From the NCBI RefSeq assembly GCF_000284115.1, contig NC_017080.1, forward strand, positions 660,001-692,000: a DNA stretch of 32,000 nt, given 5' to 3'. Under the pieces are notes generated by a model that made no database searches, was not told the DNA's origin, and worked only from the letters and a program-made list of their open reading frames with translations. Shown one piece after another: positions 5,241-20,841 of the stretch. This DNA is from Phycisphaera mikurensis NBRC 102666. GTDB lineage: Bacteria > Planctomycetota > Phycisphaerae > Phycisphaerales > Phycisphaeraceae. Position 1 is the stretch's first letter, and each line of letters opens with the position of its first letter. Position numbers and translations under genes: made by a program.

Positions 5241-6626
5241 ATGACCGCGAATCCCGCGCCCGCCGCTCCGCCCGCCGAACGCTACGCCCGCTCCGCGGCA
5301 TCGCACGCCGAGGCGAAACGCTACATGCCCGGCGGGGTGAACTCGCCGGTCCGCGCCTACCGCGCCGTCGGGCGCGAGCCCGTGACGATCCGCAGCGGGG
5401 CCGGGGCTTGGGTCACCGACGTCGACGGCAACCGCTATGTGGACTACGTCGGCAGCTACGGTCCGCTGATCCTCGGCCACGCGGCGCCGCAAGTGCTTGC
5501 CGCCGTGGGCGAAGCGATGCGCAACGGGACCACCTTCGGGATGCCCACCGAGGCGGAGACGCGGCTGGCCCGAACCGTGGTGGACGCGGTGCCCGGCGTC
5601 GACGTCGTGCGTTTCGTGAACTCCGGCACCGAAGCCGCGATGTCGGCGTTGCGCCTGGCGCGGGCGGCGACGGGCGGGCACCGCGTGATCAAGTGCATCG
5701 GCTGCTACCACGGCCACACCGATGCGATGCTGGTCTCCGCGGGCTCGGCGGCGACCTCGCTGGGTGTGCCCAGCAGCCCGGGCGTGCCCGCGGCGGTGGC
5801 GGCGTCCACGCTGCTCGTGCCCTTCAACGACCTGGACGCGGTGGAGCGGGCCATGGCCACCCACCGCGGCGAGATCGCGTGCATGGCCGTCGAGCCGATC
5901 GCGGGAAACATGGGGCTGGTCCCGCCGGCGCCGGGGTACCTGCAGGGGCTCCGCGCCCTGTGCGACCGCTTCGGCGTCCCGCTGCTCTTCGATGAGGTGA
6001 TGACCGGCTTCCGCGTCGATCACGGCTGCGCCCAGGGGCTGTACGGCGTCACGCCCGACCTCACGTGCCTGGGCAAGGTGGTCGGCGGCGGCCTGCCGTG
6101 CGCGGCCTACGGCGGCCGGGAGGAGCTGATGCGCCAGGTCGCGCCCGACGGGCCGGTCTACCAGGCCGGAACGCTCTCGGGCAACCCCCTGGCGATGGCG
6201 GCGGGGCAGGCGCAGCTCGACGCGCTCGCCGCGGACGGCTTCGCCGCGTACCGCCGGCTCGAGGCGGCGTCGGCACGCCTCGAAGAAGGCCTCCGCGGCC
6301 TCGCCGCCGACGCCGGCTGCCCGCTCACGACCACCCGCGTCGGCTCGATGCTCGGCGTCTTCTTCGTCGAGGAGGACGGCAGCCCCGTCCGCGACTACGC
6401 CGACGCCACGGCGCAGTCGACGCGGCGGTACGCCGCCTTCTTCGGCGCCATGCTCGACGCCGGCGTCATCCTCGCCCCCGCCGCCTTCGAGTGCTGGTTC
6501 GTCTCGACGGCGCACGACGACGAAGCCATCGAGCACACGCTCGCCGCCGCCGGGCCGGCCTTCGCGGCCGCGGCGGCGACGCCGTTCCGCTCGGCGGAGG
6601 TCCGCTCGCCGGAGGCGGACGCGTAG
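5241..6626 (+). CDS. hemL: Glutamate-1-semialdehyde 2,1-aminomutase
   Basis: 461-aa ORF with ATG preceded by GGAG. RYMPGGVNSPVRAY, YVDYVGSYGPLILGH, RFVNSGTEAAMSALRLAR, FDEVMTGFR and LGKVVGGGLP (PLP-Lys region) are all HemL-typical. Confidence 0.95.
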   Translation: MTANPAPAAPPAERYARSAASHAEAKRYMPGGVNSPVRAYRAVGREPVTIRSGAGAWVTDVDGNRYVDYVGSYGPLILGHAAPQVLAAVGEAMRNGTTFGMPTEAETRLARTVVDAVPGVDVVRFVNSGTEAAMSALRLARAATGGHRVIKCIGCYHGHTDAMLVSAGSAATSLGVPSSPGVPAAVAASTLLVPFNDLDAVERAMATHRGEIACMAVEPIAGNMGLVPPAPGYLQGLRALCDRFGVPLLFDEVMTGFRVDHGCAQGLYGVTPDLTCLGKVVGGGLPCAAYGGREELMRQVAPDGPVYQAGTLSGNPLAMAAGQAQLDALAADGFAAYRRLEAASARLEEGLRGLAADAGCPLTTTRVGSMLGVFFVEEDGSPVRDYADATAQSTRRYAAFFGAMLDAGVILAPAAFECWFVSTAHDDEAIEHTLAAAGPAFAAAAATPFRSAEVRSPEADA

Positions 6627-6646: not shown

Positions 6647-8305
6647 ATGCCGGAAGCCTCCCCCAAGAAGACGATCCTCGCCGCCGACAAGCTCGCCCCC
6701 GAGGGGTTGGATTGGATCCGCAGCCAGCCCGACGCGGAGCTGCTCGAGAAGCCGGGGCTGTCCGAGGCGGAGTACGCGGCGATCCTCAGAGGCGGCGGCG
6801 TGCACGCGATGATCGTGCGCTCGGCCATCACGGTGTCCGCCGGGGTGCTCGCGGATCCAGGGGACCTGGCCGTGATCGCGCGGGCCGGCGTGGGCGTCGA
6901 CAACATCGACATCCCCGCCGCGACGGCCAGGGGCATCCTCGTCGTCAACACCGCGGAGGCCTCGACCATCACCACCGCCGAGCACGCCTTCACGCTGCTC
7001 GCGTCGCTGCTGCGGAACATCGCTCCGGCGGCGGCTTCCATGCGGGAGGGCCAGTGGGACCGCTCCAAGTTCCAGGGCCGCCAGCTGCACGGCATGACGC
7101 TGGGCGTCGTCGGCCTGGGCCGCATCGGCCGGACGGTGGCCGAGCGGGCGCTGGCCTTCGGCATGAAGGTCGTCGGGCACGACCCCTTCGTGCACGCGGA
7201 CCTGCAGATCGACGGCCACACCGTGCGGACCTTCCGCAGCTTCGCGGAGCTGGCGCCGCACGCGGACGCCGTCACCTTCCACGTGCCCAAGACCGCGGAA
7301 ACCACCGGCATGCTCGACGAAGCGTCGTTCGCGCTCTGCCGCGACGGCGTCTTCGTGGTCAACGCCTCCCGCGGCGGCATCGTCGACGAGCAAGCCCTGG
7401 TGGCGGCGCTGGGCAGCGGCAAGTGCGGCGGGGCCGCGTTGGACGTCTACACCAGCGAGCCTCCGCCGGCCGACAGCCCGCTGCGATCGGCTCCGCGCCT
7501 GCTGCTCACGCCCCACCTGGGCGCGAGCACGCAGGAGGCGCAGACCGCGGTCTCGGTCGAGGCGGCCAAGGCGTGCATGGCCTACCTGCGGGGGGAGGGG
7601 ATCTCCGGTGCGGTCAACGCGGGCGGCGTCCGCGTCGACCTGTCGCCGCGGCAGCGGGCCTTCGTCGAGCTGGCGGGGAAGATGGCGACGCTGCTGTCGC
7701 CGATGATCACCCGCGGCATCGCCGGCGTGGAGGTGGCGCTCGACGGCGACGACCTCGCGCCCGCCGCGGGCACCGTCGAGCGGACCGTGCTCGTCGGCCT
7801 GCTCCAGCGTCACCTCGCCTCGGCGCTGAACGTCATCAACGTCGCCGACGTGGCGGAGAAGCGCGGCATCCGGGTCACCACCCGCAGCTCCGGCGGCGAC
7901 CCCGGCGGCGGCAAGCTCACGCTGACCGTGCACGGCCCCGCCGATGCGGTCGACGCGAGCACCGAGGCGGCCGACCGCAGCCGCCGGATCGTCGGCCGCG
8001 TGTACGCCGACGGCGCCCCGCGCGTCGTGGAGGTCAACGGCTACGCGATGGACATGGTGCCCGCCGGCGCGATGGTGCTGATCCAGAACGAGGACAAGCC
8101 GGGGATCATCGGCGCCGTCGGCACGGCCTTCGGATCGGCCGGCGTGAACATCGCCGACATGACCATCTCCCGGCGGTCCCGCGAGGGTGAGCACGTGGCG
8201 ACGGCGCTCATGCTCCTCAAGCTCGACGCCGCCGCGCCGGCGGGATTGCTCGCGGACCTGGAGGCCCTGCCGGCGGTGCGGAAGGTCGCCGCGGTGCAGG
8301 TCTAG
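6647..8305 (+). CDS. serA: D-3-phosphoglycerate dehydrogenase with C-terminal ACT domain
   Basis: ORF 6065..8305 trimmed to the ATG at 6647 (MPEASPKKTILAADKLAPEGL...), 20 nt after the hemL stop. Contains the 2-hydroxyacid dehydrogenase NAD-binding motif GVVGLGRIGRTVAERA, plus NASRGGIVDE and TPHLGAST. The ACT-like end is MVLIQNEDKPGIIGAVGTAFG. Confidence 0.93.
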   Translation: MPEASPKKTILAADKLAPEGLDWIRSQPDAELLEKPGLSEAEYAAILRGGGVHAMIVRSAITVSAGVLADPGDLAVIARAGVGVDNIDIPAATARGILVVNTAEASTITTAEHAFTLLASLLRNIAPAAASMREGQWDRSKFQGRQLHGMTLGVVGLGRIGRTVAERALAFGMKVVGHDPFVHADLQIDGHTVRTFRSFAELAPHADAVTFHVPKTAETTGMLDEASFALCRDGVFVVNASRGGIVDEQALVAALGSGKCGGAALDVYTSEPPPADSPLRSAPRLLLTPHLGASTQEAQTAVSVEAAKACMAYLRGEGISGAVNAGGVRVDLSPRQRAFVELAGKMATLLSPMITRGIAGVEVALDGDDLAPAAGTVERTVLVGLLQRHLASALNVINVADVAEKRGIRVTTRSSGGDPGGGKLTLTVHGPADAVDASTEAADRSRRIVGRVYADGAPRVVEVNGYAMDMVPAGAMVLIQNEDKPGIIGAVGTAFGSAGVNIADMTISRRSREGEHVATALMLLKLDAAAPAGLLADLEALPAVRKVAAVQV

Positions 8306-11134: not shown

Positions 11135-12604
11135 TCAGGACGCGTCCGCGTCCGGCGGCGTCGCCTCCCGCGTCACGGTCGCCTGGCCGGGCACGCCGAG
11201 GCGGCCCAGCGCGGCGGCGTCGGCGGTGAAGCCGACCGTCTTGGCGTCCCAGTGCTTGTAGGTGTGGCAGGTGCCCCGCATCCACAGCAGCGCCGTGTCG
11301 CCGCCGGGCCGACGCGGCACGACCGGCCGGGTGTTGTCCTCGGCGGAATCCCAGGTCACCGGCGTCCAGGCCCAGCTCGCGCCGCCGTCGCCGGTGACGC
11401 CCTTGAAGATCTCGTAGCGGTCGAGCTTGGCGTCGTCGCGCGGGTCCACCGGCGTGGAGACGAAGATCAGGTCGGGGTTCTCGGGGTGCAGCGCGACCAG
11501 GCCGGTGTAGTCGTTCTCGGCTTTGTAGAGGTAGCCGCCGGCGCGGGCGACCTCGTGGACGGCCCAGGACGAGCCGTCGTGGCGGGCGTAGAAGAAGCGG
11601 TGGTCGCCGTCGTCGTCCCGCGCCCGGGCGCTGAAGACGGTCCAGGGGTTGCCGTCGTCGTCCACGTCCAGGTCGATCGTCCAGCCGCGGTGCATCGGCA
11701 CGCCGGCGAAGCGCTGGCCGGGCGTGAGCAGGGCGGTGAAGTCGGCGGCGTGGTGCGGGCTCCGGGGCTCGCGGGCCAGCGGGCCGAGCACGGTGCCGCC
11801 GGAGGCCTCGAGCTTGCCCGCCCGCAGCACCCCGTGGTAGACGCCGTTGTCCTCGTCGCGCGGGTGGCCGTCGGTCGTCGTGAAGTGCACGCTGCCGTCG
11901 GCGCCGGGCGCGTACTTGACGTAGGGCCGCTGGTTCCCCGCGCCGTTGCCGTCGGGCCCGGTGAGCAGCTTCCCGCCGTAGGTCCAGGTGCCGCCGTCGT
12001 CCTCGGAGACGAACCAGTTGGGGTCGTACCCGTTGGACCGGGCGAAGTTGAGGAGCCGCGTCCGCCCGTCGGCCATCTTCGCCGGGACGATGTTGCTGTA
12101 GCAGATCTCGGCGTTGTGCCGCATCTGCTTCTCCTGGGACCAGGCCGTCGGATCGTGCGGGTTCGTTGACACCCGGTAGCGGATGAGGTTCTCGCCCCAG
12201 TGCCGCGCGTACAGCGCGACGTAGCGCCCGTCGGCCCGGACGTGGATCGCGGCGCTGTTGTGGTCGTCCGGCGGCATGCCGGTGTTGAGCGTGAAGGCGC
12301 CGGTCTGGCCGGTTGCGAGGTTCCGCCAGAGCAGGTCGATGTCGCCGCGACCGGGCGTGCCCTCGGGCCCGAAGCCGACCGTCGACGCCAGCAGGATCGG
12401 GCCCCCGGGCGCGTCGTCGTCGATCACCACGCGCTCGTCCTGATACCAGCACCAGGCGCCCCCGGTGTCGGGCCGCTCGGACGTGAGGTCAAACACTTCG
12501 GGGACCGCGTTCACCGCGGCAGCGTAAGCCGTTCCCGTGGCGACCGGCAGGAGCGTGCCGGAGGCCAGGAGGAGCGCGAGAGCGGGAAGCAGAGGCAGGC
12601 GCAT
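11135..12604 (-). CDS. Secreted BNR/Asp-box beta-propeller protein (sialidase-like fold)
   Basis: ORF 11135..12643 begins at a GTG. I prefer the ATG at 12604 because it gives a clean signal peptide (MRLPLLPALALLLASGTLLPVATGTAYAAAV). Asp-box motifs SEDDGGTW and TGDGGASW are present, and the overall pattern resembles the BNR-repeat (BNR_4-like) family. Confidence 0.75.
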   Translation of the reverse strand: MRLPLLPALALLLASGTLLPVATGTAYAAAVNAVPEVFDLTSERPDTGGAWCWYQDERVVIDDDAPGGPILLASTVGFGPEGTPGRGDIDLLWRNLATGQTGAFTLNTGMPPDDHNSAAIHVRADGRYVALYARHWGENLIRYRVSTNPHDPTAWSQEKQMRHNAEICYSNIVPAKMADGRTRLLNFARSNGYDPNWFVSEDDGGTWTYGGKLLTGPDGNGAGNQRPYVKYAPGADGSVHFTTTDGHPRDEDNGVYHGVLRAGKLEASGGTVLGPLAREPRSPHHAADFTALLTPGQRFAGVPMHRGWTIDLDVDDDGNPWTVFSARARDDDGDHRFFYARHDGSSWAVHEVARAGGYLYKAENDYTGLVALHPENPDLIFVSTPVDPRDDAKLDRYEIFKGVTGDGGASWAWTPVTWDSAEDNTRPVVPRRPGGDTALLWMRGTCHTYKHWDAKTVGFTADAAALGRLGVPGQATVTREATPPDADAS

Positions 12605-12683
12605 GAGCGGATTCCGGAAGGATGGGAAGCGGTCGAATGTCACATGTTAACTAAAGGACCATCCCGCACCGGCCGCCGCCCGG

Positions 12684-12729
12684 CCGCGGACCGCCGCGCC
12701 CGCCGGTCGCTCGGCCTCGCGGTCCGCGG
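12684..12729. repeat. Copy D of dispersed 46-bp palindromic element
   Basis: CCGCGGACCG at 12684-12693, 26-nt spacer, CGGTCCGCGG at 12720-12729. Lies in the divergent intergenic region between the BNR gene and rsmB. Confidence 0.85.
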
Positions 12730-12852: not shown

Positions 12853-14091
12853 ATGCCGGAGCTGCAGCCCGCCGAACCGGCCGCGCTGGGCGAGGGGCTC
12901 TCGCCCGCCGACGCCCGGCTCGCGCTCGCGATCGTGCGGACCGTGCACCAGCGTTGGCTGACGCTGGGGCCGCTGCTGCAGTCGGTCGGCTGCCCGGCGG
13001 TGTCGACGCTGTCGCCGGGGCTGCAGGCCGTGCTGCTCGGCGCCGCCGCCCAGCTGCTGTTCTTCGACCGGCTGCCCGCCCGCGCCGTCGTCCACGAGGC
13101 GGTGGACCTCGCCCGGCGCTTCGCCAATCCCAACGCCGCCGGCTTCGTCAACGCGGTGCTGCGCGCGCTGGACGAGGCGGTGATGTCGTCGCCCGAGGCG
13201 ACGGGCGAGCCCTGGACGCCGGGGAGGTCCCGGCTGCCGGTGGACCCGCGTGGCGGCCAGGCCCTCACCTCCCGCCCGCTCTGGGGCGACCTGCTCCCCG
13301 ACCCGTCGAACCCGGTGCGGCACCTCGCCGCCGCGTGCAGCCTGCCGCGGCCGCTGGTCCGCGCGCTGGTCGAGGCCCACGGCCCCGAGGCCGCCGCGGG
13401 CGTCGCCGCGGCGGCGGTCCGGCGGCCCCCGGTCTTCGTGGCCGAGGGCACCGGTCCGCCCGAGCGGTACGACGGTGCGCCCGTCTGGCTCGCCGCCCAC
13501 CTCGCCGAGAACCCCGCCCGCCGCGTGCAGGACCCGGCGTCGGCGCTCGCGGTGGCCGCGACCGCGGGCTTGACGCCGCGGAGGGTCCTGGACCTCTGCG
13601 CCGGCCGCGGCACCAAGACCCGGCAGCTGCTCGCGACCCACCCCGACGCCGAGGTGTCGGCCTGGGACCCCGACGCGGAGCGTGCCCGCGACCTGGCGGC
13701 GATCCCCGGCGTGGACGTCGGCGAACCGGCGGCCGACGCGCGTTTCGACCTCGTCCTGCTCGACGTCCCGTGCACGAACACCGGCGTGCTCGCCCGCCGG
13801 CCCGAGGCCCGCTACCGCTGGAGCGCCCGGCGGCTCGCCTCGCTGGTCGCCCTGCAGCGCGAGATCCTCACCCGCGGCGCCGGGTTCGTCGCCCCCGGCG
13901 GGCACCTGCTCTACAGCACCTGCTCGGTGGATCCCGCGGAGAACCAGGAGCAGGCGGCGTGGCTCCTGGGCCAGCCCGCGGGCGCACGCTTCGCGCCCGT
14001 GGGCGAGCGCCTGCGCCTGCCCGGCGGCGTGGGCGAGGCCTACGCGGACGGCAGTTACCATTCGCTCTTCTGCGCGGGGTCCCGACCATGA
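12853..14091 (+). CDS. rsmB: 16S rRNA (cytosine-C5)-methyltransferase RsmB/Sun family
   Basis: 412-aa ORF. NusB-like N-terminal region (FANPNAAGFVNAVLRAL), SAM-binding motif VLDLCAGRGTKT, and the catalytic Cys motifs DVPCTNTGV and YSTCSVDPAENQ. No in-frame ATG/GTG/TTG lies further upstream. Confidence 0.88.
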   Translation: MPELQPAEPAALGEGLSPADARLALAIVRTVHQRWLTLGPLLQSVGCPAVSTLSPGLQAVLLGAAAQLLFFDRLPARAVVHEAVDLARRFANPNAAGFVNAVLRALDEAVMSSPEATGEPWTPGRSRLPVDPRGGQALTSRPLWGDLLPDPSNPVRHLAAACSLPRPLVRALVEAHGPEAAAGVAAAAVRRPPVFVAEGTGPPERYDGAPVWLAAHLAENPARRVQDPASALAVAATAGLTPRRVLDLCAGRGTKTRQLLATHPDAEVSAWDPDAERARDLAAIPGVDVGEPAADARFDLVLLDVPCTNTGVLARRPEARYRWSARRLASLVALQREILTRGAGFVAPGGHLLYSTCSVDPAENQEQAAWLLGQPAGARFAPVGERLRLPGGVGEAYADGSYHSLFCAGSRP

Positions 14092-14522
14092 CCGACAGCA
14101 CCGAGCCACTCGTCCTGATGGAGCTCTCGCGGGTGTTGATCCGCGAGACCGAGGACACGCACTTCCTGGAGCTCCGCGAGGCCGAGCCCGACGCCGACCA
14201 CGAGGCGCGGACCTTCCCGATCGTCATCGGCTTCACGGAGGCCGCCGCCATCGAGCGGCGGCTGATGGGGCAGACGCCCGAGCGGCCGCAGACCCACGAG
14301 CTGCTCTCCGCGGTCATCGAGCGGCTCAACCACGTGCTCGACCGCGTCGTCATCAACGACTTGCACGACCAGACCTTCTTCGCCCGCGTCCACCTGCGGC
14401 ACCGCGGCAGCGGCGAGGTGGTCGAACTGGACGCCCGGCCCAGTGACGCGATCGCGCTGTCGGCGGACCGCGAGACGCCGATCTTCGTGGCCGAGCACGT
14501 GCTCTCGCACGTCAACGCCTAG
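14088..14522 (+). CDS. Bifunctional nuclease domain protein (DUF151/BFN)
   Basis: In-frame tail of ORF 12813..14522, starting at the ATG at 14088. This start overlaps the rsmB stop as ATGA. The 144-aa product contains FPIVIGFTEAAAIERRL, RPQTHELL and LDARPSDAIALS...PIFVAEHVL, which match the DUF151 pattern. Confidence 0.85.
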   Translation: MTDSTEPLVLMELSRVLIRETEDTHFLELREAEPDADHEARTFPIVIGFTEAAAIERRLMGQTPERPQTHELLSAVIERLNHVLDRVVINDLHDQTFFARVHLRHRGSGEVVELDARPSDAIALSADRETPIFVAEHVLSHVNA

Positions 14523-14578
14523 CGCGCCAAGCTCGGTCAAGACGCGGCGCAGCATCCGGCCGCGGTAGCGTCCCGCCC

Positions 14579-15730
14579 ATGTCCGACCGCATCGCCGGCG
14601 CCCTGCTGCTCTCTGCCTACGGCGACGCCGCCGGGCTGCCGCACGAGGCGGGCGGGGGGCTGGACGGGGAGGCCGGCGACCCCGCGCGCGAGCCGCTGCC
14701 GGTCGTCGACACGTTCCGCGAGGCGGCGGCGGAGCCCTGGGGCGTGTGGTTCCCGCCGGAGGAGACGGCGGGGCTGCGGGGGGTGGTCAGCGACGACACG
14801 GCGACGAAGATCCGGCTCACCGAGCCCTGGCTGCGGTCGCGCCCGGACCGGTGGGCACCGGAGGCGAGGGACGCGCTGGGCGGCTTTGGGGCGCGAGCGG
14901 AGCCCGACCGGTCCGGAGAGTTCCGGGCGTGGCTGGCGGACCTCGTCCGCCCGGACCCGCCCCGCCCGGTGCCGGAGGTGGCGGCGGCGCAGGCCAGCGA
15001 CTGGATCGCCATGTTCGCGGCGCAGGAAGCCCGCACCCCCGGCCGGACCGTCTTCTACGAACCGGGCGTGCCGGTGGTCTTCGGCCCCTTCCTCTACCAG
15101 GGTCTCGCGCTCTCGCCCGCTTCCGCGGCGGCGCCGCTGAAGCGGGTCTTCGACCGCTTCGCCGGGATCTGCGCCCTCGACGAGGGCATCGCCAAGAGCG
15201 TCACCGGCGTCTTCGCCGCGCTCACCGCGGCCGCCGTGGACGCCCCGCACGACGCCGTGCCCTTCGACCCCTGGCTCCGCGGCACCCTCGAGCACCTCCG
15301 CGGCGTCGTCCGCGGGAGCCCGGGCGCCGACGAGCTCGTCGGCCGGATCGATGGGCTGCTCGGGGTTCGCTCCCTCGGCGGCGACCCCGAGGCCTTTCTC
15401 GCGTGGATGAAGTCCGGGCTCTACGACCACCCCGAGCGGGCACCCCGCCACGGCCTCAAGCCCTTCGACAGCCTGCTCCAGCTCAGCCAGGTCCTCGCCT
15501 GCCTGCTCCACGGCCGCGGCGACGCCGCCGCCACGATGGCCGTCGCCACCAACGTGCCCGGCGATGCCGACACGGTGGCCGCCTCCCTTGGGCTGATCCT
15601 CGGCGCCTGGCACGGCCGCGACGCGCTCATGAACAGCGGCCTCGCCGGGGGCCTCGCCGCCGTCGGGGCCACCACGCAGCGCCTCTTCGGCGTCGCGCTG
15701 AGCGAACGCGTCGCCGCCTACACGCCCTAG
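14579..15730 (+). CDS. ADP-ribosylglycohydrolase family protein
   Basis: 383-aa ORF with an ATG start. N-terminal DRIAGALLLSAYGDAAGLPHE, the SDDT motif (VVSDDTATK) and the C-terminal metal-site motif VPGDADTVAASLGLILGAWHG. Confidence 0.8.
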   Translation: MSDRIAGALLLSAYGDAAGLPHEAGGGLDGEAGDPAREPLPVVDTFREAAAEPWGVWFPPEETAGLRGVVSDDTATKIRLTEPWLRSRPDRWAPEARDALGGFGARAEPDRSGEFRAWLADLVRPDPPRPVPEVAAAQASDWIAMFAAQEARTPGRTVFYEPGVPVVFGPFLYQGLALSPASAAAPLKRVFDRFAGICALDEGIAKSVTGVFAALTAAAVDAPHDAVPFDPWLRGTLEHLRGVVRGSPGADELVGRIDGLLGVRSLGGDPEAFLAWMKSGLYDHPERAPRHGLKPFDSLLQLSQVLACLLHGRGDAAATMAVATNVPGDADTVAASLGLILGAWHGRDALMNSGLAGGLAAVGATTQRLFGVALSERVAAYTP

Positions 15731-15804
15731 CGCACCGCGCGTCCTCGCCGGATCGGTGAGCGCCCGCAGAGGCGATCCCGGGAAGGATGCACGGTGCGCT
15801 CCGA

Positions 15805-15850
15805 CCGCGGACCGCGAGCCTTCGCACCGGAAAACGACGACGGTCCGCGG
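15805..15850. repeat. Copy B of dispersed 46-bp palindromic element
   Basis: CCGCGGACCG at 15805-15814, 26-nt spacer, CGGTCCGCGG at 15841-15850. Lies in the convergent gap between the ARH gene and the zinc-ribbon gene. It is immediately followed by a second small hairpin, CGCACC-GGC-GGTGCG (15851-15865). Confidence 0.85.
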
Positions 15851-15911
15851 CGCACCGGCGGTGCGGGGGCCTCCGGCCCGGTGGATCGCGGCCGGCTCGA
15901 GGCGGAACCCC

Positions 15912-16664
15912 TCAGCGGCCCGCCAGCTCTTCTTTCATCTGGGTGTCGGCGACGAGGATCCGCCCGCACGAGGGGCAGTGGGTCAGCTCGTCGGGCCGGC
16001 TCAGCGTCGCGTTGACGGCCTGCACGGGCAGGCTCATGTAGCAGCCGCCGCAGGTGTACTCCATCCGCTTGCGGTCCTGCTCCTCGATGCCGCAGACGGC
16101 CTCGCCCTCGGTGTCTTCCTGCAGCCGGTCGTAGGTCCTGCGGATCTCCTCGGGCACCTCCGCGGCGGCCCGGTCGCGGTCGGCCTCGACGTCGCCCAGC
16201 CGGTCGCCCACCTCGGCGGTGGCCTCGGCGATCTCCGTCTCCGCTTCGCTCACCAGCTGCTTCTGCTCGGCCACCCTCTCCTGGGTCTTGCCCGCCTCGT
16301 TCGTCAGCGACTCGATGCGGCCCATCTGGTCGAGGGCGAGCGACTCGAGCTTGCCCTGCTGGATCTTGAGGTTGTTGACCTCCACCGAGAGGGCGCTGAA
16401 GGCTTTCGGGTCGCTGGTGTTCTGCAGCTGTTCCCGCAGCTTCTTCACACGCGCCTCGCTGTCCGAGGCCTCGCCCTCGAGCGTCGACGCGTGGGCCTTG
16501 GCCTTCTTCAGCTCCTCCGTCCGCTCGCGGTGCTGCTCCTCGAGCTGCGCCAGCCGCTCCTGTTGCAGGTCGCGGCGGCGGGTCGCGGCGTCGAGGCGGC
16601 GGCGGAGGGAGCGGACGTTGGAGTCCTTCTCAAAGAGCGTGGAAAGTTGGTCTTGCAGGGTCAA
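15912..16664 (-). CDS. COG1579-type coiled-coil protein with C-terminal C4 zinc ribbon
   Basis: ORF 15912..16766 has a long coiled coil followed by CGGC...(18 aa)...CPSC. The track start at 16766 is a GTG. I prefer the TTG at 16664 because GGAG lies 6 nt upstream and the ~250-aa size fits the family. The start is uncertain. Confidence 0.72.
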   Translation of the reverse strand: MTLQDQLSTLFEKDSNVRSLRRRLDAATRRRDLQQERLAQLEEQHRERTEELKKAKAHASTLEGEASDSEARVKKLREQLQNTSDPKAFSALSVEVNNLKIQQGKLESLALDQMGRIESLTNEAGKTQERVAEQKQLVSEAETEIAEATAEVGDRLGDVEADRDRAAAEVPEEIRRTYDRLQEDTEGEAVCGIEEQDRKRMEYTCGGCYMSLPVQAVNATLSRPDELTHCPSCGRILVADTQMKEELAGR

Positions 16665-16803
16665 AGCGGGCTCCAAGGCGGGGGGCGTCAGTGTAGAGCC
16701 GTTGGGGCCGCACGCGGGCGGCTGGGGCGGCTTGGCAAGCCTCCACGGCGTCGATACACTCCCCACCCGACGCCCGGCGGCGGCCCCCTCCGCGAGGAAC
16801 CCC

Positions 16804-16876
16804 GGGGCCTTAGCTCAGCTGGGAGAGCGCTTGTATGGCATACAAGAGGTCAGGAGTTCGATCCTCCTAGGCTCCA
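16804..16876 (+). tRNA. tRNA-Ala (anticodon GGC)
   Basis: GGGGCCT-TA-GCTC-AGCTGGGA-GAGC-G-CTTGT-ATGGCAT-ACAAG-AGGTC-AGGAG-TTCGATC-CTCCT-AGGCTCC-A folds as a cloverleaf. The anticodon loop AT-GGC-AT gives GGC. The G3:U70 alanine identity pair is present. CCA is not encoded. Confidence 0.93.
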
Positions 16877-16900
16877 CTCGCCTCCGGGTGTCGAATCAAG

Positions 16901-16932
16901 GGACCGCCGCCCGGCTTGCCGGGCGGCGGTCC
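16901..16932 (+). terminator. Perfect 14-bp stem / 4-nt loop hairpin after tRNA-Ala
   Basis: GGACCGCCGCCCGG-CTTG-CCGGGCGGCGGTCC, located 25 nt downstream of the tRNA 3' end. No U-tract follows. Confidence 0.55.
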
Positions 16933-17003
16933 TGCACGCCCCTGCCGCCCTCCGGGAGGACCGGGATTCCCCGGGGTGCCGGATCCGGTGCGCCCGGCGT
17001 AGG

Positions 17004-17978
17004 GTGGCACGCTTGGAGCAGCTCGGCTACCACGCCCGCGCGGCACGCCGCGGATCGGAGATCGACGCCGAGGCGGCGACCGCCATCGTTCGGCGCCACC
17101 TCGGGCACCTTGGCGACGGCCTGACGGTCATCCGCCAGCGGAAGCTGTACGGCGGTTCGATCAATCGGGTGATCGAGTGGACGGTCCGCGACGCGACCGG
17201 GCGCGACCGCCCGCTCGTCGCGAAGGTGAACAACCTCAGGAGCGCGAAGCTGTTCCGCCGCGAGATGGCGTCGCTGGAGGTCTACCGCACCCAGACGGAC
17301 CTGCCGGTGCCCCGGCCGCTCGCGTACCTGGAGGACGAACCCGAGTTCGACGGATCGGGCCTGCTGATGCAGCGCATCGACGGCGTGAATCTCTCCGAGG
17401 CGAAGGTGACGCCCGCGGGCATGCGGCTGCTCCAGCGGGACCTCGCCGGTCACGTGGTCGCCCTCCACAGCCACCACCGAAGCGCCTACGGCACCGCGCT
17501 GGAGCCGACCGGCCCGCGTCGCTGGCTCGACAGCTTCGGCCCGGTCATCGGCGAGGAGTTCTTCCGCGTCCGCGACGCGATCCCCTCCGCGACCCGCGAG
17601 GTCATCGACGACATTGTGAAGAACCTCGAGGTCTGGCTGCCCGAGCAGAGCACGCCGACGCTGGTCCACGGCGACCTGTGGTCGAACAACATCCTCGTCG
17701 ACGACCGCCACCCCGACCGGCCGGAGATCCTCGCCTTCATCGACGTCTCGGCGAGTTACTGCGACCCGGAGTACGAGCTGGCCTACCTGCGGATGTTCCA
17801 GACGGCCGACGATTCCTTCTTCGAGCGCTACCGCCGCCGCCACCCGCTCCGCTCGGGCTTCTCCCGCCGCTGCCGCGTGTACTGGCTGAACACGATGATG
17901 ATGCACGTCCGCGTGTTCGGCGACCGGTACCTGCCGCAGCTCGAGGACATCGTCCGGCAGATCCGGACGCTGGGCTGA
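17004..17978 (+). CDS. Fructosamine-kinase / aminoglycoside-phosphotransferase-like kinase
   Basis: In-frame tail of ORF 15756..17978. Contains YGGSINRVIEW, LVAKVN, the catalytic loop LVHGDLWSNNILV, FIDVSASYCDPEYELAYL and YWLNTMMMH. The conserved N-terminus has no in-frame ATG, so the start must be non-ATG. GTG 17004 is chosen, with TTG 17013 as the alternative. Confidence 0.78.
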   Translation: MARLEQLGYHARAARRGSEIDAEAATAIVRRHLGHLGDGLTVIRQRKLYGGSINRVIEWTVRDATGRDRPLVAKVNNLRSAKLFRREMASLEVYRTQTDLPVPRPLAYLEDEPEFDGSGLLMQRIDGVNLSEAKVTPAGMRLLQRDLAGHVVALHSHHRSAYGTALEPTGPRRWLDSFGPVIGEEFFRVRDAIPSATREVIDDIVKNLEVWLPEQSTPTLVHGDLWSNNILVDDRHPDRPEILAFIDVSASYCDPEYELAYLRMFQTADDSFFERYRRRHPLRSGFSRRCRVYWLNTMMMHVRVFGDRYLPQLEDIVRQIRTLG

Positions 17979-18045
17979 CACGACCGCGCTTCTCTGCCCG
18001 CTCCGGCGAGCTCCCCATCGGCGACGGCCCGAAGACCCGGCCGCA

Positions 18046-18690
18046 GGTGGCTCATCGACGCCGTCGATGTAGAAGCGGATTGCAACCGGAGCAGCCCGAG
18101 TCCGCGATTGAGCGTCGTTCCCCGTTCCCGCTTCTCCGTCCGCCTCAGCCGCCACATCCACGGAGTGGATGAGCCACCCGGTCAGGTGGCTCATCGACTC
18201 CGTCGATGTAGAAGCTGGTTGAACCCGAGACGGCCCGAAGCCGCAACCGGGTGGGGTTGCCGCTTCCAGCTCATCCGCGTCCCTAAGCCGCCACATCCAC
18301 GGAGTGGATGAGCCACCCGGCCAGGTGGCTCATCGACTCCGTCGATGTAGAAGCGGATTGCAACCGAGACGGCCCGAAGCCGCGACCGGGCGTGGTTCCC
18401 CGTTCCCGCTTCTCCGTCTGCCTGAGCCGCCACATCCACGGAGTGGATGAGCCACCCGGCCAGGTGGCTCATCGACTCCGTCGATGTAGAAGCTGGTTGA
18501 ACCCGAGACGGCCCGAAGCCGCGACCGGGCGTGGTTCCCCGTTCCCGCTTCTCCGTCTGCTTAAGCCGCCACATCCACGGAGTGGATGAGCCACCCGGCC
18601 GCAGGTGGCTCATCGACTCCGTCGATGTAGAAGCCGACTGCAACCGAAACGGCCCGAAGCCGCGACCGGGCGGGCGTGGCACCCGGGAGG
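18046..18690. repeat. Tandem array, ~4.6 copies of a 139-bp unit built on a ~60-nt nested palindrome
   Basis: GGTGGCTCATCGAC starts at 18046, 18185, 18324, 18463 and 18604, giving spacings of 139, 139, 139 and 141. There are four full palindromic cores of the form CCACATCCACGGAGTGGATGAGCCACC-CGGCCA-GGTGGCTCATCGACTCCGTCGATGTAG. They lie at 18152-18211, 18291-18350, 18430-18489 and 18569-18630. A solo right arm lies at 18046-18072. The array fills the gap between the convergent genes ending at 17978 and 18705. Confidence 0.92.
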
Positions 18691-18704
18691 GTGCGAGCGT
18701 TTGG

Positions 18705-19703
18705 TTACTGCTGCTGCTGCATCTGCTGCGACTGGTAGCTGAAGGGCAGCGGCTCGTCGGGGATGCTCTGCGGCTTGTCCGGCGGGATCCAGCCCGAACG
18801 CGGCCGCGAAGAGGTCCGCGGGGTCTCGTGGAGCGACGCGACGTGGACGCTCACCCGCAGCGAGGAGGCGGCGCTCCCGCGGAAGACGCCCTTGGTCGGC
18901 GGGACGTCGGCGTAGTCGCGGCCGATGGCGGTGCGGATGTGGTGCGCGCCGCACGCGGTGCCGCTGGTGGGATCGAAGCCGGCCCAGCCGTAGCCGGGGA
19001 GGAAGCACTCGACCCAGGCGTGGGTCGCGGCGAGGTCCGCCACGTCCGCGGCGGCGGCCTCGCCGTGCAGGTAGCCCGAGACGTAGCGGCACGGCAGGCC
19101 GTGGTGGCGGGCGGCGGCGATGAGCACGTGGGCGAAGTCCTGGCACACGCCCGCGCGGCTCTCCAGCGCCTCGTCGATGGGCGAGTCGGCGGTGGTGCTG
19201 GCGGTGCGGTAGGTGAAGCCCTCGTGGACCGCGCGGCACAGCGTGGCGATCGCCTCCAGCGGCGACGCGGGCCGCGCCGGCAGAGCGCCGTCGGCGAAGG
19301 CCGTCAGCGCCGCGGTCCGGTGGGCGAAGTGGCTGCCCTGGAGCATGTCCCAGAGGAATTGCCCCTCGTTGTCCTCGCCGACGAGGCCGTGGAGCTTTTC
19401 CCACCCGAAGGCCTCGCCGCGGGCCTGCTCCTCCGAAGGCAGCGGCGTCGGCTCGTCCACCACGACGTGCGACTCCGCCTCGATCACCTGCTCGACGTGC
19501 ACATTGGGGAGCGTGAAGTGGTGCACGGCGTTGCCCAGCCAATCGGAGAACGTCTTCAGCTGCACGCGCGGGCTGACCCATAGGTCGAAGGCCCGCAGCC
19601 GCTGGTGCCACTCGTCCCGGGGCTTCATGCGGAGTTCCATGACGGACTCCCGGACGGGCTTGTCGTACGTGAACGTGTTCCGGTGGGTGATCGTGTATTG
19701 CAT
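18705..19703 (-). CDS. Transglutaminase-family protein (Bact_transglu_N plus transglutaminase core)
   Basis: ORF 18705..19928 trimmed to the ATG at 19703 (MQYTITHRNTFTYDKPVRESVMELRMKPRD...). The Cys-His-Asp triad context is intact: RAGVCQDFAHVL, THAWVECFLPGYGWAGFDPT. The C-terminus is a Gln-rich tail (SYQSQQMQQQQ). Confidence 0.9.
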   Translation of the reverse strand: MQYTITHRNTFTYDKPVRESVMELRMKPRDEWHQRLRAFDLWVSPRVQLKTFSDWLGNAVHHFTLPNVHVEQVIEAESHVVVDEPTPLPSEEQARGEAFGWEKLHGLVGEDNEGQFLWDMLQGSHFAHRTAALTAFADGALPARPASPLEAIATLCRAVHEGFTYRTASTTADSPIDEALESRAGVCQDFAHVLIAAARHHGLPCRYVSGYLHGEAAAADVADLAATHAWVECFLPGYGWAGFDPTSGTACGAHHIRTAIGRDYADVPPTKGVFRGSAASSLRVSVHVASLHETPRTSSRPRSGWIPPDKPQSIPDEPLPFSYQSQQMQQQQ

Positions 19704-19854
19704 GGGTCTCCGCTTCACGGGAGGGGTCGGGGGGGCGATCCGCTCGCCCCGGCGGCTCGGCTGCGCCTCCACCTGGGCGTGCCGCCGGCGGCGGGTGGGC
19801 GACCGGCCGCGGGCGCTCCGGGGCCCCGGCGGCCGCACCACCGGCGGCGTCGGG

Positions 19855-20841
19855 TCAAAGGACGCTCGCGATGGGGTAGGCGACGAAGCCCTGGAAGGTC
19901 CCGTCGACGACCTCGCGGGCGCGGGCATCGACCTCGTCGAGGAACGCCCCGAGGCCGCCCTCGACCAGGTCGCCGGGGTCGGTGAACTCGACGCGGCTCT
20001 TCAGGCGGCCGGCCGCCCGCAGCGGGCCGCCGGCGAGGCGGTCGCCGGCGGTCTCGGCGATGCGCTTGAGGTCGTAGTGGATCGCGTCGACCGTGTAGCG
20101 GATCGACCGGGGGAACCCGTTGTCGAGCGCCAGGAAGCCGACGACCTCGTCGAGGCCCGTGCCGGTGGGGTGCTGCGAGAGGAAGCTCTCGTAGGCGGAC
20201 ACGCACCGCATGAGCGTCACGCCGGTGAGGTGCCGGTCGGGCTCGAAGCCGGCGTCGGCGTCGGCCCCGAGCTCCTCGCCGAGGTCTCCGCCGCGGGGGT
20301 CGTTCATCGCGGGCCGGCACAGGTGCACGCGGAGCAGCCGGGTCAGCGCGTCGAGGCGTTCGAGGTGGCGGCCCAGCCGCAGGAAGAAGTAGGCCTCGTC
20401 GTGGCGGACGGTGGCGTCGGTGATGCCGGTGAAGAGGCGGACGCCCTCACGCACCCGCGCGAAGTAGTCGGAGTTGGTGCCCTCCCAGGCCTCCGCCGCC
20501 TCGGCCCGGAGCACGTCGAAGTAGAGCGCGTTGAGCTGCTCGAACATCTCCGTGGAGACCCGCTCGCGCACCTGCCGGGCCGACTCGCGGGCCGCCGAGA
20601 CCGAGGAGCGGACGCTGCAGGTCAGCTGCGGGTCGAAGCCGATGGCGGCGATCGCCGACGAAGACGAGAGCGGCTCGGGCAGCGGGCAGGCGAGGCTCTC
20701 CAGCAGCATGGCCCAGCGCCGGCGGCCGGCGCTGGTGTCGAGCATCGAGGCCATCTCGGTCTCGACCACGCGAGCGGCGTGCTCGGCGCGTTCGAGCTGG
20801 CGGCCCAGGTGAAGGAGTGTGTCGGCGACGCGTGAGAGCAT
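19855..20841 (-). CDS. Alpha-E domain protein (DUF403)
   Basis: 328-aa ORF with an ATG start. The all-helical sequence begins MLSRVADTLLHLGRQLERAEHAARVVE, which is the characteristic ER-motif N-terminus of alpha-E proteins. It sits between the CP-ATP-grasp and transglutaminase genes, as in the conserved triad. Confidence 0.85.
   Translation of the reverse strand: MLSRVADTLLHLGRQLERAEHAARVVETEMASMLDTSAGRRRWAMLLESLACPLPEPLSSSSAIAAIGFDPQLTCSVRSSVSAARESARQVRERVSTEMFEQLNALYFDVLRAEAAEAWEGTNSDYFARVREGVRLFTGITDATVRHDEAYFFLRLGRHLERLDALTRLLRVHLCRPAMNDPRGGDLGEELGADADAGFEPDRHLTGVTLMRCVSAYESFLSQHPTGTGLDEVVGFLALDNGFPRSIRYTVDAIHYDLKRIAETAGDRLAGGPLRAAGRLKSRVEFTDPGDLVEGGLGAFLDEVDARAREVVDGTFQGFVAYPIASVL

What the first reader, a model, noticed from the sequence alone, without database searches (positions are those of the whole stretch)
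17979..18704. 139-bp tandem array of nested three-hairpin palindromes filling a convergent intergenic gap
Seen directly in the sequence. The whole 726-bp gap between the kinase stop (17978) and the transglutaminase stop (18705) is a head-to-tail array.

Periodicity and coding. The motif GGTGGCTCATCGAC starts at 18046, 18185, 18324, 18463 and 18604, with periods of 139, 139, 139 and 141. The period is not a multiple of 3. The ORFs drawn through the array therefore change frame every unit and are not coding repeats.

The core. Each junction carries a ~60-nt palindrome: CCACATCCACGGAGTGGATGAGCCACC, a 6-8 nt loop (CGGCCA, CGGTCA or CGGCCGCA), then GGTGGCTCATCGACTCCGTCGATGTAG.

Local hairpins. Each arm is itself a hairpin. 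The left arm is CATCCAC-GGA-GTGGATG and the right arm is CATCGAC-TCC-GTCGATG. The centre forms a third hairpin, AGCCACC-loop-GGTGGCT, extendable to 11 bp.

Compensatory changes. Two of the three differences between the arms are a C/G swap at the two positions that pair with each other inside the local 7-bp stems. This keeps both small hairpins perfect while putting C.C and G.G mismatches into the long arm-arm duplex. That pattern is compensatory and argues for selection on the three-hairpin fold rather than on one long stem. The only substitution in the solo arm at 18046 (T to G) falls in a hairpin loop.

Conservation pattern. The cores are near-identical across copies: the arms do not vary among the four full cores, and only the central loop does. 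The ~72-nt linkers diverge. I count 14 differences over 45 nt between the linker segment of units 2 and 4. The first 12 nt of the linker alternate between GGATTGCAACCG (units 1 and 3) and TGGTTGAACCCG (units 2 and 4), which hints at a 278-bp higher-order duplication. In unit 2, two linker substitutions turn GCGACC...GGTTCC into a perfect GCAACC-GGGTGG-GGTTGC hairpin.

Two possible parses. (a) REPIN/BIME-like doublets of inverted REP-like hairpins. (b) Head-to-tail ~133-bp MITE-like elements with ~27-nt terminal inverted repeats separated by 6-bp linkers. The flank CCCGGCCGCA before the first arm (18036-18045) is identical to the linker before the fifth (18594-18603). This favours expansion by tandem duplication.

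Possible roles (inference): a bidirectional transcription barrier or mRNA 3' stabiliser, a structured tandem ncRNA, or a protein-binding array. The C-rich, G-poor linker on the + strand also looks like a possible Rho loading region.
Basis: partly seen in the sequence, partly recalled or inferred. Interest (0 to 1): 0.75.

Follow-up and report, generated by a model that had tools for sequence, protein, structure and literature searches.

The report
Tandem REP-like palindrome cluster, Phycisphaera
The gap between two convergent genes of the planctomycete Phycisphaera mikurensis is filled by about five tandem copies of a 139-bp unit built from two inverted hairpin modules; it behaves like the REP/BIME palindromic repeat clusters long known in other bacteria, so it is a new family of an ordinary kind of element.

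Summary
TRF finds a 139-bp array of 4.6 copies at 18035-18672, with five R arms and four L arms and no other copy in the window. An independent assembly of Phycisphaera mikurensis carries it unchanged.

The arm is a 34-nt module: a 7-bp hairpin with a GGN triloop, followed by an invariant AGCCACC box. The same module lies at three non-homologous places in two related metagenome contigs (L006, L007). Their stems differ but pair fully: 5 of 7 pairs change on both sides. Their linkers are unrelated. The local hairpin and its box are therefore the conserved unit, and the two arms of each dimer carry different stems, as in published REP "heterodimers".

In this genome the predicted fold is one long stem (-42.9 kcal/mol), not three hairpins (-29.0).

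Within 68 kb of P. mikurensis DNA the arms occur only in this array. A second palindromic family (termini GGTGCCACGCC) is dispersed there, mostly in convergent gaps, and one of its termini abuts the array.

No Rfam family, coding potential, target-site duplication, parent IS or HUH transposase was found.

Best reading: a BIME/REPIN-like mosaic cluster expanded by local tandem duplication. It probably acts as a structural barrier at the 3' ends of both transcripts; that role is inferred.

The parts
17013..17978 (+). Fructosamine/APH-type kinase gene (321 aa), upstream convergent neighbour
   Evidence: Pfam Fructosamin_kin and APH cover only the C-terminal 290 aa of the 740-aa ORF. The gene call in L003 at 11726-12691 maps to these coordinates.
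17979..18045 (.). Degenerate left flank. 18023-18045 is a linker piece (GACGGCCCGAAG) fused to ACCCGGCCGCA, i.e. the end of an L arm plus a junction loop. This looks like an internally deleted unit.
   Evidence: Repeat family D3, alignment A1, and the identical CCCGGCCGCA.
18046..18184 (+). Unit 1: R arm 18046-18072 (loop variant GCC), linker 18073-18151, L arm 18152-18178, junction CGGTCA. This is the most diverged unit.
18185..18323 (+). Unit 2: R arm 18185-18211, linker with the perfect GCAACC-GGGTGG-GGTTGC hairpin, L arm 18291-18317, junction CGGCCA.
18324..18462 (+). Unit 3: R arm 18324-18350, linker, L arm 18430-18456, junction CGGCCA.
   Evidence: As RNA the unit folds at -72.5 kcal/mol on the + strand and -79.9 on the - strand.
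18463..18603 (+). Unit 4: R arm 18463-18489, linker, L arm 18569-18595, junction CGGCCGCA. It is 95% identical to unit 3.
18604..18672 (+). Unit 5, truncated: R arm 18604-18630 plus the first half of a linker; no L arm.
18673..18704 (-). Right flank. GGTGCCACGCC (- strand, 18673-18683) is the terminus of a second palindromic repeat family that is dispersed in this genome. The hairpin GCACCC-GGGA-GGGTGC (18679-18694) lies just after the transglutaminase stop codon.
   Evidence: A terminator-like site on the - strand lies at 18671-18652.
18705..19703 (-). Transglutaminase-family gene (332 aa), downstream convergent neighbour. It is the last gene of a CP_ATPgrasp / Alpha-E / transglutaminase operon.
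   Evidence: Pfam. P0001 is 100% identical and named as Phycisphaera mikurensis. Gene calls.

Best explanation
The array is a BIME/REPIN-like mosaic cluster of small palindromic repeat modules. This is a DNA-level repeat family, not a gene.

The basic module (shown): about 34 nt, 5'-(Y)A-CA.....-GGN-.....TG-AGCCACC-3'. That is a 7-bp hairpin with a 3-nt loop and an invariant 7-8-nt box.

The unit (shown): two modules in inverted orientation, with the boxes outward (GGTGGCTC ... GAGCCACC), enclose a structured spacer of about 65-80 nt. This gives a 113-133-nt REPIN-like unit. The unit occurs alone or partly duplicated elsewhere in related Phycisphaerae.

Origin of the array (inferred from the sequence pattern): in P. 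mikurensis one such unit, plus a 6-nt junction, was amplified in place by tandem duplication or unequal recombination. The result is four full copies and a truncated fifth, with later exchange between units. The two arms of each unit carry different stems, so each keeps its own hairpin while the long arm-arm palindrome is interrupted.

Function (inferred by analogy with REP/BIME): transcripts entering from either convergent gene fold into a series of very stable stem-loops. These impede read-through and block 3'-to-5' exonucleases. The array would then insulate the two genes from each other and stabilise both mRNA 3' ends.
For: Reality of the array:
- establish the array, and one search shows it identical in a second assembly.

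The same module elsewhere:
- It occurs at L006:5011-5133 (one R-linker-L unit), at L007:15963-16150 (L-21 nt-R-75 nt-L, 152-bp period) and at L007:12237-12272 (single).
- Covariance model R1 scores these and the window arms at 42-52 bits. The next best hit is 16 bits in 133 kb. There are no hits in 433 kb of viral loci.

Selection on the hairpin:
- 5 of 7 stem pairs change on both sides and 100% of cells are paired. Controls slid by 1-3 columns give 11-55% paired.
- The box is invariant.
- The linkers are unrelated between genomes.

Stability:
- The core folds at -48.5 and -52.6 kcal/mol (z -8 to -9).
- Units fold at -71 to -80 kcal/mol.
- The whole gap folds at -398 and -451 kcal/mol (z -10.7 and -14.4).

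Position:
- All four family loci lie at gene 3' ends, three of them in convergent gaps.
- A second palindromic family in the same genome (GGTGCCACGCC termini: 14 exact hits in 68 kb, none in relatives) also lies at gene 3' ends, mostly in convergent gaps. It forms a three-copy cluster in L055, and one terminus abuts this array.

Literature:
- REP dimers are commonly heterodimers with different stems. REPs lie mainly between convergent or co-directional ORFs, and some families are clustered in blocks (PMC3733652).
- The tandem REP325 cluster of E. coli acts as both a partial terminator and an mRNA stabiliser. REPs between convergent genes go with higher expression of both genes (bioRxiv 10.64898/2026.03.23.713779).
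Against: - Within P. mikurensis the arms were seen only in this array: 1 locus in about 68 kb sampled. High-copy dispersal, a hallmark of REPs, is therefore not shown for this genome.
- Exact-pattern scans of species-representative genomes and JGI metagenomes found only chance matches in inositol-monophosphatase genes.
- The unpaired tag is neither GTAG nor CGTC.
- No RAYT or Y1 transposase gene appears in any held locus.
- Two of the relatives' copies were picked by a script that required a perfect hairpin, which inflates the 100% pairing.
- No expression data exist, so the terminator/stabiliser role is pure analogy.
- There is no U-tract. The only terminator-like consensus hit is a weak one in the last linker.
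Confidence: 0.6

Rival explanations
1. Tandemly inserted or duplicated MITEs. On this view the 133-bp unit is a non-autonomous derivative of a DDE-type insertion sequence with ~27-35-nt terminal inverted repeats (GGTGGCTCATC...), mobilised in trans. The array has no host function.
For: - The unit is bounded by inverted repeats of 27-35 nt at 83-92% complementarity.
- A solitary unit of similar size (113 nt) exists in L006.
- The relatives' contigs are rich in IS66, IS3 and IS4/5 transposases.
Against: - No target-site duplication flanks the L006 or L007 units or the array.
- No IS in the held loci ends in this sequence.
- Between genomes the inverted-repeat stems change by compensatory substitutions that preserve intra-arm hairpins. 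That is not what a DDE transposase binding site is expected to do.
- A single arm exists on its own at L007:12237.
Confidence: 0.15
2. Neutral or selfish minisatellite. A palindromic element landed in a permissive convergent gap and expanded by slippage or unequal crossing-over, with no effect on the flanking genes.
For: - The region downstream of the transglutaminase gene is highly variable in relatives. L007 has a 276-bp gap with a different inverted-repeat element. L005 has a 9.7-kb insertion with IS elements and HicAB. L006 and L057 have other neighbours.
- Linkers diverge freely (78-95% identity between units).
Against: - Arms and box are perfectly conserved across all copies while linkers drift.
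- The hairpin is kept by compensation across genomes.
- However, this would also follow from selection for mobility rather than for host function.
Confidence: 0.2
3. An array of protein-binding or recombination sites. Each junction (GATGAGCCACC - 6 nt - GGTGGCTCATC) has the architecture of a tyrosine-recombinase core site, or of a dyad operator for a nucleoid or partition protein.
For: Perfect 11-bp inverted repeats around a 6-8-nt spacer occur four times at a 139-bp period.
Against: - The spacing is not conserved. It is 21 nt in L007, and in L006 the boxes face outward, about 100 nt apart.
- There is no resemblance to dif.
- No recombinase gene lies nearby.
- No copy was found on plasmids.
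Confidence: 0.04
4. A tandem structured non-coding RNA or cis-regulatory 3'-UTR element selected at the RNA level on one strand.
For: - Very strong predicted structure on both strands.
- Covariation in the hairpins.
Against: - No Rfam family reaches threshold. The only hits are generic long-hairpin miRNA models far below their gathering scores.
- The module occurs in both orientations at every locus, so there is no strand asymmetry.
- The interior of the unit is not conserved between genomes.
- There is no promoter-like site in the gap.
Confidence: 0.05

Closest known systems
BIME (bacterial interspersed mosaic elements) of enterobacteria, especially BIME-2 clusters such as REP325
   Same: - Extragenic clusters of short palindromic modules in strictly alternating orientation, separated by conserved short and long linker motifs.
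- Amplified head-to-tail to a variable copy number.
- Placed at gene 3' ends.
- The two module types differ in their stems (Y/Z types there, R/L arms here).
   Different: - The sequence is unrelated.
- The unpaired tag is GGTGGCTC/GAGCCACC rather than GTAG.
- The hairpin is shorter (7 bp with a triloop).
- The long linker is 79 nt and is itself structured.
- Genome-wide abundance and a RAYT partner are not shown.
- The host is a planctomycete of class Phycisphaerae.
REPINs (REP doublets forming hairpins) with RAYT transposases (Bertels and Rainey 2011, PMC3116915)
   Same: - Two inverted REP-like hairpins separated by a spacer of about 70 nt.
- The whole unit can fold into one long hairpin.
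- Solitary arms exist as likely decay products.
   Different: - REPIN populations number tens to hundreds of near-identical copies per genome and accompany a single-copy RAYT. Here there is 1 locus in 68 kb of P. mikurensis, and no RAYT was seen in the held DNA.
- Tandem head-to-tail amplification is not typical of REPINs.
GTAG- and CGTC-tagged REP superfamilies (Di Nocera et al. 2013, PMC3733652)
   Same: - A stem-loop with an unpaired conserved motif at one end.
- Head-to-head and tail-to-tail dimers.
- Heterodimers whose stems differ at paired positions.
- A preference for convergent gaps.
- One family (T. roseum GTAG-23) is clustered in blocks.
   Different: - The tag does not fit GTAG or CGTC.
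- The CTAC/CCAC next to the stem lies on the opposite side from a GTAG head.
- The Planctomycetes listed in that study are Planctomyces brasiliensis and P. limnophilus, not Phycisphaera.
Class 3 TnpA-Y1 'REPtron-like' elements of Planctomycetes/Acidobacteria (Quentin et al. 2018, PMC6006769)
   Same: - A phylum-level precedent for HUH-transposase-associated hairpin repeats in Planctomycetes.
- Atypical secondary structures present in high copy number.
   Different: - Those hairpins have a 5' CnGA foot; the arms here do not.
- No such gene was found in the held loci.
- Phycisphaera is not mentioned in the text or the held supplements.
MITEs (e.g. Correia, Nezha, RUP)
   Same: Size of 100-150 bp, terminal inverted repeats, intergenic location.
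   Different: - No target-site duplication.
- No parent IS.
- The inverted repeats evolve by hairpin-preserving compensation.

Membership tests
REP / BIME (general definition) | Short (20-40 nt) imperfect palindrome able to form a stem-loop | tested here: met
   The module is 34 nt with a 7-bp stem and a 3-nt loop. Pairing is perfect in all 9 window arms and in 6 arms of relatives.
REP / BIME (general definition) | Many copies dispersed through the extragenic space of one genome | tested here: inconclusive
   In P. mikurensis there is 1 locus (this array) in about 68 kb held. Relatives have 3 non-homologous loci in about 93 kb. The complete genome was not available to any tool.
REP / BIME (general definition) | Modules in alternating orientation joined by conserved linker motifs (mosaic cluster) | tested here: met
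   The order is R-linker-L-loop repeated 4.6 times. A terminus of a second repeat family lies at 18673-18683.
REP / BIME (general definition) | Located at the 3' ends of genes, between convergent or co-directional ORFs | tested here: met
   The window array, L006 and L007:15963 lie in convergent gaps. L007:12237 lies 65 nt after the stop codon of a co-directional gene.
GTAG / CGTC REP superfamilies | Unpaired GTAG or CGTC tetranucleotide at the head of the stem | tested here: not met
   The conserved unpaired motif is AGCCACC, 3' of the stem. The 5' side reads CTA, CCA, GTA or AAA.
REPIN-RAYT system | Two inverted REPs plus a spacer that fold as one hairpin | tested here: met
   The units fold at -71 to -100 kcal/mol with z-scores of -5.8 to -9.
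REPIN-RAYT system | A cognate RAYT (Y1 HUH transposase, PF01797) gene flanked by the same REPs | not testable with these tools
   No Y1_Tnp domain appears among the called genes of any held locus. The rest of the genome could not be searched.
MITE | Terminal inverted repeats | tested here: met
   The arms are 27-35 nt and 83-92% complementary.
MITE | Target-site duplication flanking each copy | tested here: not met
   L006 flanks are ...GGGCC | unit | GGCGGCC.... L007 flanks are ...CTCTCA | unit | TGCCGG.... The window flanks are ...GGCCGCA | unit | CGGTCA. None is a direct repeat.
MITE | A parent IS with the same termini | tested here: inconclusive
   None of the IS66, IS3 or IS4/5 copies in L005-L007 ends in the box. 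There was no genome-wide test.
Any Rfam 15 RNA family | Score at or above the family's gathering threshold | tested here: not met
   Only tRNA-Ala in the window reaches threshold. Relaxed hits are miRNA hairpin models at 30-37 bits against a threshold of 100.
Xer/dif-type or other tyrosine-recombinase core site | Two inverted binding arms at a fixed spacing of 6-8 bp, conserved among relatives | tested here: not met
   The spacing is 6-8 nt here, 21 nt in L007, and there is no adjacent pair in L006.
CRISPR array | Direct repeats separated by unique spacers | tested here: not met
   The arms alternate in orientation and the 'spacers' are 78-95% identical to one another.

The most novel reading that the evidence does not exclude
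The 'hairpin + AGCCACC' module, together with the GGTGCCACGCC-terminated elements of the same genome, might represent an undescribed superfamily of REP-like elements in Phycisphaerae. They share one plan: an outer GGTGG...CCACC stem closing on two different hairpins. Such a superfamily could have its own mobilising enzyme, not a GTAG-type RAYT. Planctomycetes may also use such clusters as their main factor-independent, bidirectional transcript-end structures in convergent gaps.
Probability: 0.25. Interest if true: 0.45.

Novelty: new member of a known kind. Interest (0 to 1): 0.3.

Why it matters
REP/BIME-type repeats are well studied in Proteobacteria but hardly at all in Planctomycetes, and not in Phycisphaerae.

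- This locus gives a clean example with a new box sequence.
- It shows clear hairpin-preserving covariation between genomes.
- The palindromic repeat copies found in the sampled P. mikurensis DNA lie mostly in convergent gaps, and the long convergent gaps examined each hold one.

This is useful for annotation: the repeats cause spurious ORF calls and break short-read assemblies. They are also a starting point for asking how transcripts end in a 73% G+C planctomycete that shows few canonical terminators. It does not overturn anything known.

Tried and rejected
1. Exact-pattern scans for the arm (GGTGGCTCATCSACNCCGTSGATG).
 - Genome and metagenome collections: one hit each, both inside inositol-monophosphatase genes (motif WLIDPVDG). 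These are chance matches.
 - Viral collection: no hits.

2. Box-pair patterns in viral contigs. 44 loci matched, but none was confirmed by the covariance model, so they are chance.

3. Plasmid collection, blastn in distant mode: no match.

4. A six-frame 'spurious ORF' query of the array against 5.8 billion proteins: no hit at E<=1. No called ORF anywhere overlaps a near-identical unit.

5. Rfam at gathering and at relaxed thresholds: nothing meaningful.

6. A paralogue search to reach more of the P. mikurensis genome gave only one new locus, L055.

7. L057 was fetched as another orthologous gap, but its downstream gene is not the kinase, so it says nothing about the ancestral gap.

8. Rejected readings:
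 - Actinobacterial origin (first guess from G+C); the source is Phycisphaera mikurensis.
 - Coding repeat.
 - CRISPR.
 - dif-like site.
 - A link to the group II intron next to the L007 copy; the intron ends about 185 nt upstream and is not adjacent to a hairpin.
Full report
**1. Observation**

The region reads as the first-stage reader described it.
- Tandem Repeats Finder reports one array at 18035-18672: period 139, 4.6 copies, 87% matches, score 965.
- The 27-nt R arm GGTGGCTCATCGACTCCGTCGATGTAG occurs on the + strand at 18046 (one mismatch), 18185, 18324, 18463 and 18604.
- Its inverted partner, the L arm CCACATCCACGGAGTGGATGAGCCACC, occurs at 18152, 18291, 18430 and 18569.
- Nothing similar occurs elsewhere in the 32-kb window, and shuffles give zero matches.
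- The arms differ at three positions. Two of these are the C/G swap at paired positions of the local 7-bp stems.
- The junction loops are CGGTCA, CGGCCA, CGGCCA and CGGCCGCA. CCCGGCCGCA is identical at 18036-18045 and 18594-18603.
- ORFs drawn through the array have no Pfam match. A six-frame query built from the array finds no homologue among 5.8 billion proteins.
- The array is not an assembly artefact. It is 100% identical over 726 bp in a second assembly (L003). A short-read Logan assembly breaks 66 bp into it (L004).

Small corrections:
- 17979-18034 and 18673-18704 are not regular units.
- Units 2 and 4 differ at 13 linker positions.
- The 278-bp higher order is only partial. Units 3 and 4 are the closest pair at 95%, u1-u3 and u2-u4 are 90%, and u1-u2 is 78%.

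**2. Source and context**

- The flanking transglutaminase is 100% identical to a Phycisphaera mikurensis protein carried on a 3,803,225-bp contig. The organism is therefore a planctomycete with 73% G+C, not an actinomycete.
- The upstream 740-aa ORF is largely spurious. It runs across a tRNA-Ala(GGC) gene at 16804-16877. The kinase domains cover only its last ~290 residues. The real gene is 17013-17978.
- The downstream gene (18705-19703, minus strand) ends a CP_ATPgrasp / Alpha-E / transglutaminase operon.
- The array therefore fills a convergent gap.
- The region downstream of the transglutaminase gene is variable in relatives. L007 has a 276-bp gap carrying a different inverted-repeat element. 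L005 has a 9.7-kb insertion with IS elements and HicAB. L006 and L057 have different neighbours.

**3. The conserved module**

BLAST of the unit against the fetched loci picked up two 31-nt matches in L007, 8 kb from the orthologous genes. Listing every AGCCACC in the held DNA then showed further copies:
- L007:15963-16150 has L arm, 21 nt, R arm, 75 nt, L arm. This is a 152-bp period of about 1.5 units.
- L007:12237-12272 is a single arm.
- L006:5011-5133 is one solitary R-linker-L unit.

Aligned in the hairpin-to-box orientation, eight distinct arms share A-CA.....-GGN-.....TG-AGCCACC. The box is invariant and the inner five stem pairs are variable.
- Five of seven pairs change on both sides and every cell is paired.
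- Sliding the 3' partner by 1-3 columns drops pairing to 11-55%.
- A caveat applies. The L006 arms and the L007 single arm were recognised by a script that demanded a perfect hairpin, so the 100% figure is partly built in. The L007 tandem L arms were found by BLAST alone; the R arm between them (L007:16012-16047) came from the AGCCACC listing. A perfect 7-bp hairpin abutting a chance AGCCACC is expected at well below 1e-3 per occurrence.
- Covariance model R1, built from these arms, separates them cleanly: 42-52 bits against 16 bits for the next hit in 133 kb. It finds nothing in 433 kb of viral loci that matched box-pair patterns by chance.
- Linkers are unrelated between genomes.

The conserved entity is therefore the small hairpin with its box. 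The solitary L006 copy shows that the basic unit is box-outward (GGTGGCTC ... GAGCCACC, 113-133 nt).

**4. Folding**

- In P. mikurensis the minimum-energy structures, as RNA or DNA and on either strand, are long arm-arm duplexes with 1-nt internal loops at the C.C and G.G positions.
 - The core folds at -48.5 and -52.6 kcal/mol (z -8.2 and -8.9).
 - The units fold at -71 to -80 kcal/mol.
 - The whole gap folds at -398 and -451 kcal/mol (z -10.7 and -14.4).
- The explicit three-hairpin fold of the core costs 14 kcal/mol more: -29.0 against -42.9 kcal/mol.
- In L007 the two arms have unrelated stems (CATCGTC against CACTCAC). There the three-hairpin fold is the minimum.
- In all three genomes the two arms of a dimer differ by compensated stem changes.
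- This is the 'heterodimer' arrangement described for many REP families. One proposed explanation is that interrupting the long palindrome protects it from hairpin-cleaving nucleases, while each REP keeps its own stem-loop (PMC3733652, section 14).
It does not show that three hairpins are the functional fold here.

**5. Is it dispersed?**

I assembled 46.9 kb of contiguous P. mikurensis DNA around the window (L008, L010) and fetched one further 20.8-kb locus (L055).
- The arms occur only in the array.
- Relatives carry three loci in about 93 kb.
- Exact-pattern scans of species-representative genomes and JGI metagenomes returned only chance matches inside inositol-monophosphatase genes. The source genome itself was not hit, so it appears to be absent from that collection.
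- Dispersal is therefore shown for the lineage but not for this genome.

A second palindromic family is plainly dispersed in the same P. mikurensis DNA.
- These are 105-nt elements with 24-nt termini GGTGCCACGCCGCTTGCGGGGTGG enclosing two different hairpins (DNA fold -50.9 kcal/mol).
- Copies lie at L008:14246-14351 and L010:14537-14640, with three copies in L055:4272-4963. Longer and shorter elements with the same termini lie at L055:17565-17887 and 20587-20653.
- GGTGCCACGCC occurs 14 times in about 68 kb of P. mikurensis DNA and never in the relatives.
- Its only copy in the window is at 18673-18683, at the right edge of the array. The array linkers carry the variant GGAACCACGCC.
- Most of these copies lie in convergent gaps. 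The exception, L055:20587-20653, lies between co-directional genes.

The array is the largest example of a general habit of this genome: long convergent gaps are built from mosaics of palindromic repeats.

**6. Explanation**

The best-supported reading is a BIME/REPIN-like mosaic cluster.
- A REPIN-like unit of a lineage-specific palindromic family sits in a convergent gap.
- It was amplified in place by tandem duplication. The evidence is the identical junction CCCGGCCGCA at both ends, the fixed 6-nt junctions, the 95% identity of units 3 and 4, and a comparable 1.5-unit duplication in L007.
- Mobility by a single-strand (HUH-type) mechanism is suggested only weakly. There is no target-site duplication, the hairpin rather than the sequence is conserved, and solitary arms exist. 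No such gene was seen in the held loci, and I could not search the genome.

The functional part is inference from enterobacterial REP clusters.
- REPs lie mostly between convergent and co-directional ORFs close to stop codons (PMC3733652).
- The tandem REP325 cluster is both a partly Rho-dependent terminator and an mRNA stabiliser. REPs between convergent genes go with higher expression of both (bioRxiv 10.64898/2026.03.23.713779).
- I therefore expect the array to stop or slow read-through from both genes and to protect both 3' ends.
- The specific Rho-loading suggestion is weak. The most C-rich, G-poor 78-nt window (C 45%, G 23%) lies between the 95th and 99th percentile of the window, and it sits between very stable helices.

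**7. Rivals**

- A MITE from a DDE-type IS. There is no target-site duplication and no parent IS, and the terminal repeats evolve by compensation.
- A neutral minisatellite. This cannot be excluded; it differs from the best reading only in denying host function.
- A recombinase or operator site array. The spacing is not conserved in relatives.
- A strand-specific ncRNA. The element is symmetric, there is no Rfam hit, and the interior is not conserved.

**8. Comparison and novelty**

- It works like a BIME-2 cluster or a REPIN. It is not a member of the GTAG or CGTC REP superfamilies, because the tag was tested and not met.
- REPIN-RAYT membership cannot be claimed without the transposase and the copy-number test.
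- The Planctomycetes previously listed with tagged REPs are Planctomyces brasiliensis and P. limnophilus. Class 3 TnpA-Y1 elements of Planctomycetes have a CnGA foot that these arms lack.
- It is therefore a new family of a well-known kind of element. It is of modest interest, mainly for annotation and for the question of how transcripts end in planctomycetes.

Noticed in passing
window 15756-17978 (ORF), 16804-16877 (tRNA): The 740-aa ORF taken as 'the kinase' runs straight across a tRNA-Ala(GGC) gene. Only its last ~320 codons (17013-17978) are the kinase. A Zn-ribbon/coiled-coil gene lies on the opposite strand at 15912-16664.
   Followed up: yes
window 16901-16932: A perfect 13-bp G+C hairpin (GGACCGCCGCCCGGCTTGCCGGGCGGCGGTCC) lies 24 nt after tRNA-Ala. 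It is a likely terminator without a U-tract.
   Followed up: no
L008:14246-14351; L010:14537-14640; L055:4272-4377, 4494-4599, 4858-4963, 17565-17887, 20587-20653; window 18673-18683: A second palindromic repeat family specific to P. mikurensis. Its termini are GGTGCCACGCC(GCTTGCGGGGTGG), enclosing two different small hairpins. Copies are 88-100% identical and mostly lie in convergent gaps. Three copies are clustered in L055, where gene callers placed spurious ORFs of 150 and 57 aa across them.
   Followed up: partly
window 15805-15854; L008 (2.4 kb left of the window); L010:18019-18065: A third small (~50 nt) self-complementary repeat, with three copies at 84-85% identity in 47 kb.
   Followed up: no
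L007:7962-7994 and 8150-8185 (also 5552-5583): In the related MAG, the gap orthologous to the array (between the transglutaminase and kinase genes) holds a different element. It is bounded by inverted (CACGGAGG)n repeats, and the same octamer repeat recurs between two other genes.
   Followed up: no
L007:~13900-15781: A group II intron (RVT_1 ORF at 14679-15722, with domain V/VI-like sequence up to ~15781) lies 185 nt upstream of the L007 arm cluster. An IS66 copy lies just beyond.
   Followed up: partly
L005:11063-20745: In another relative, a 9.7-kb insertion separates the transglutaminase and kinase genes. It carries IS3 and IS4/5-type transposases, several hypothetical genes and a HicAB pair. 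This site appears to be a hot spot for insertions.
   Followed up: no
L001:893-916; L002:1773-1796: The arm matches 22 of 24 nt of the coding sequence for the inositol-monophosphatase motif W-L-I-D-P-V-D-G in unrelated bacteria. This is a chance convergence that can mislead pattern searches.
   Followed up: yes
window 18705-19928: The 407-aa ORF overstates the transglutaminase gene. The database protein and gene calls start at 19703 (332 aa).
   Followed up: yes
window 4419-4453: A 35-nt near-perfect palindrome (GCGGCGAGGCGGAGCGGCCCAGCCGCTCCGCCTCGCC) lies about 280 nt upstream of the ribosomal protein S15 gene (3869-4138, minus strand).
   Followed up: no
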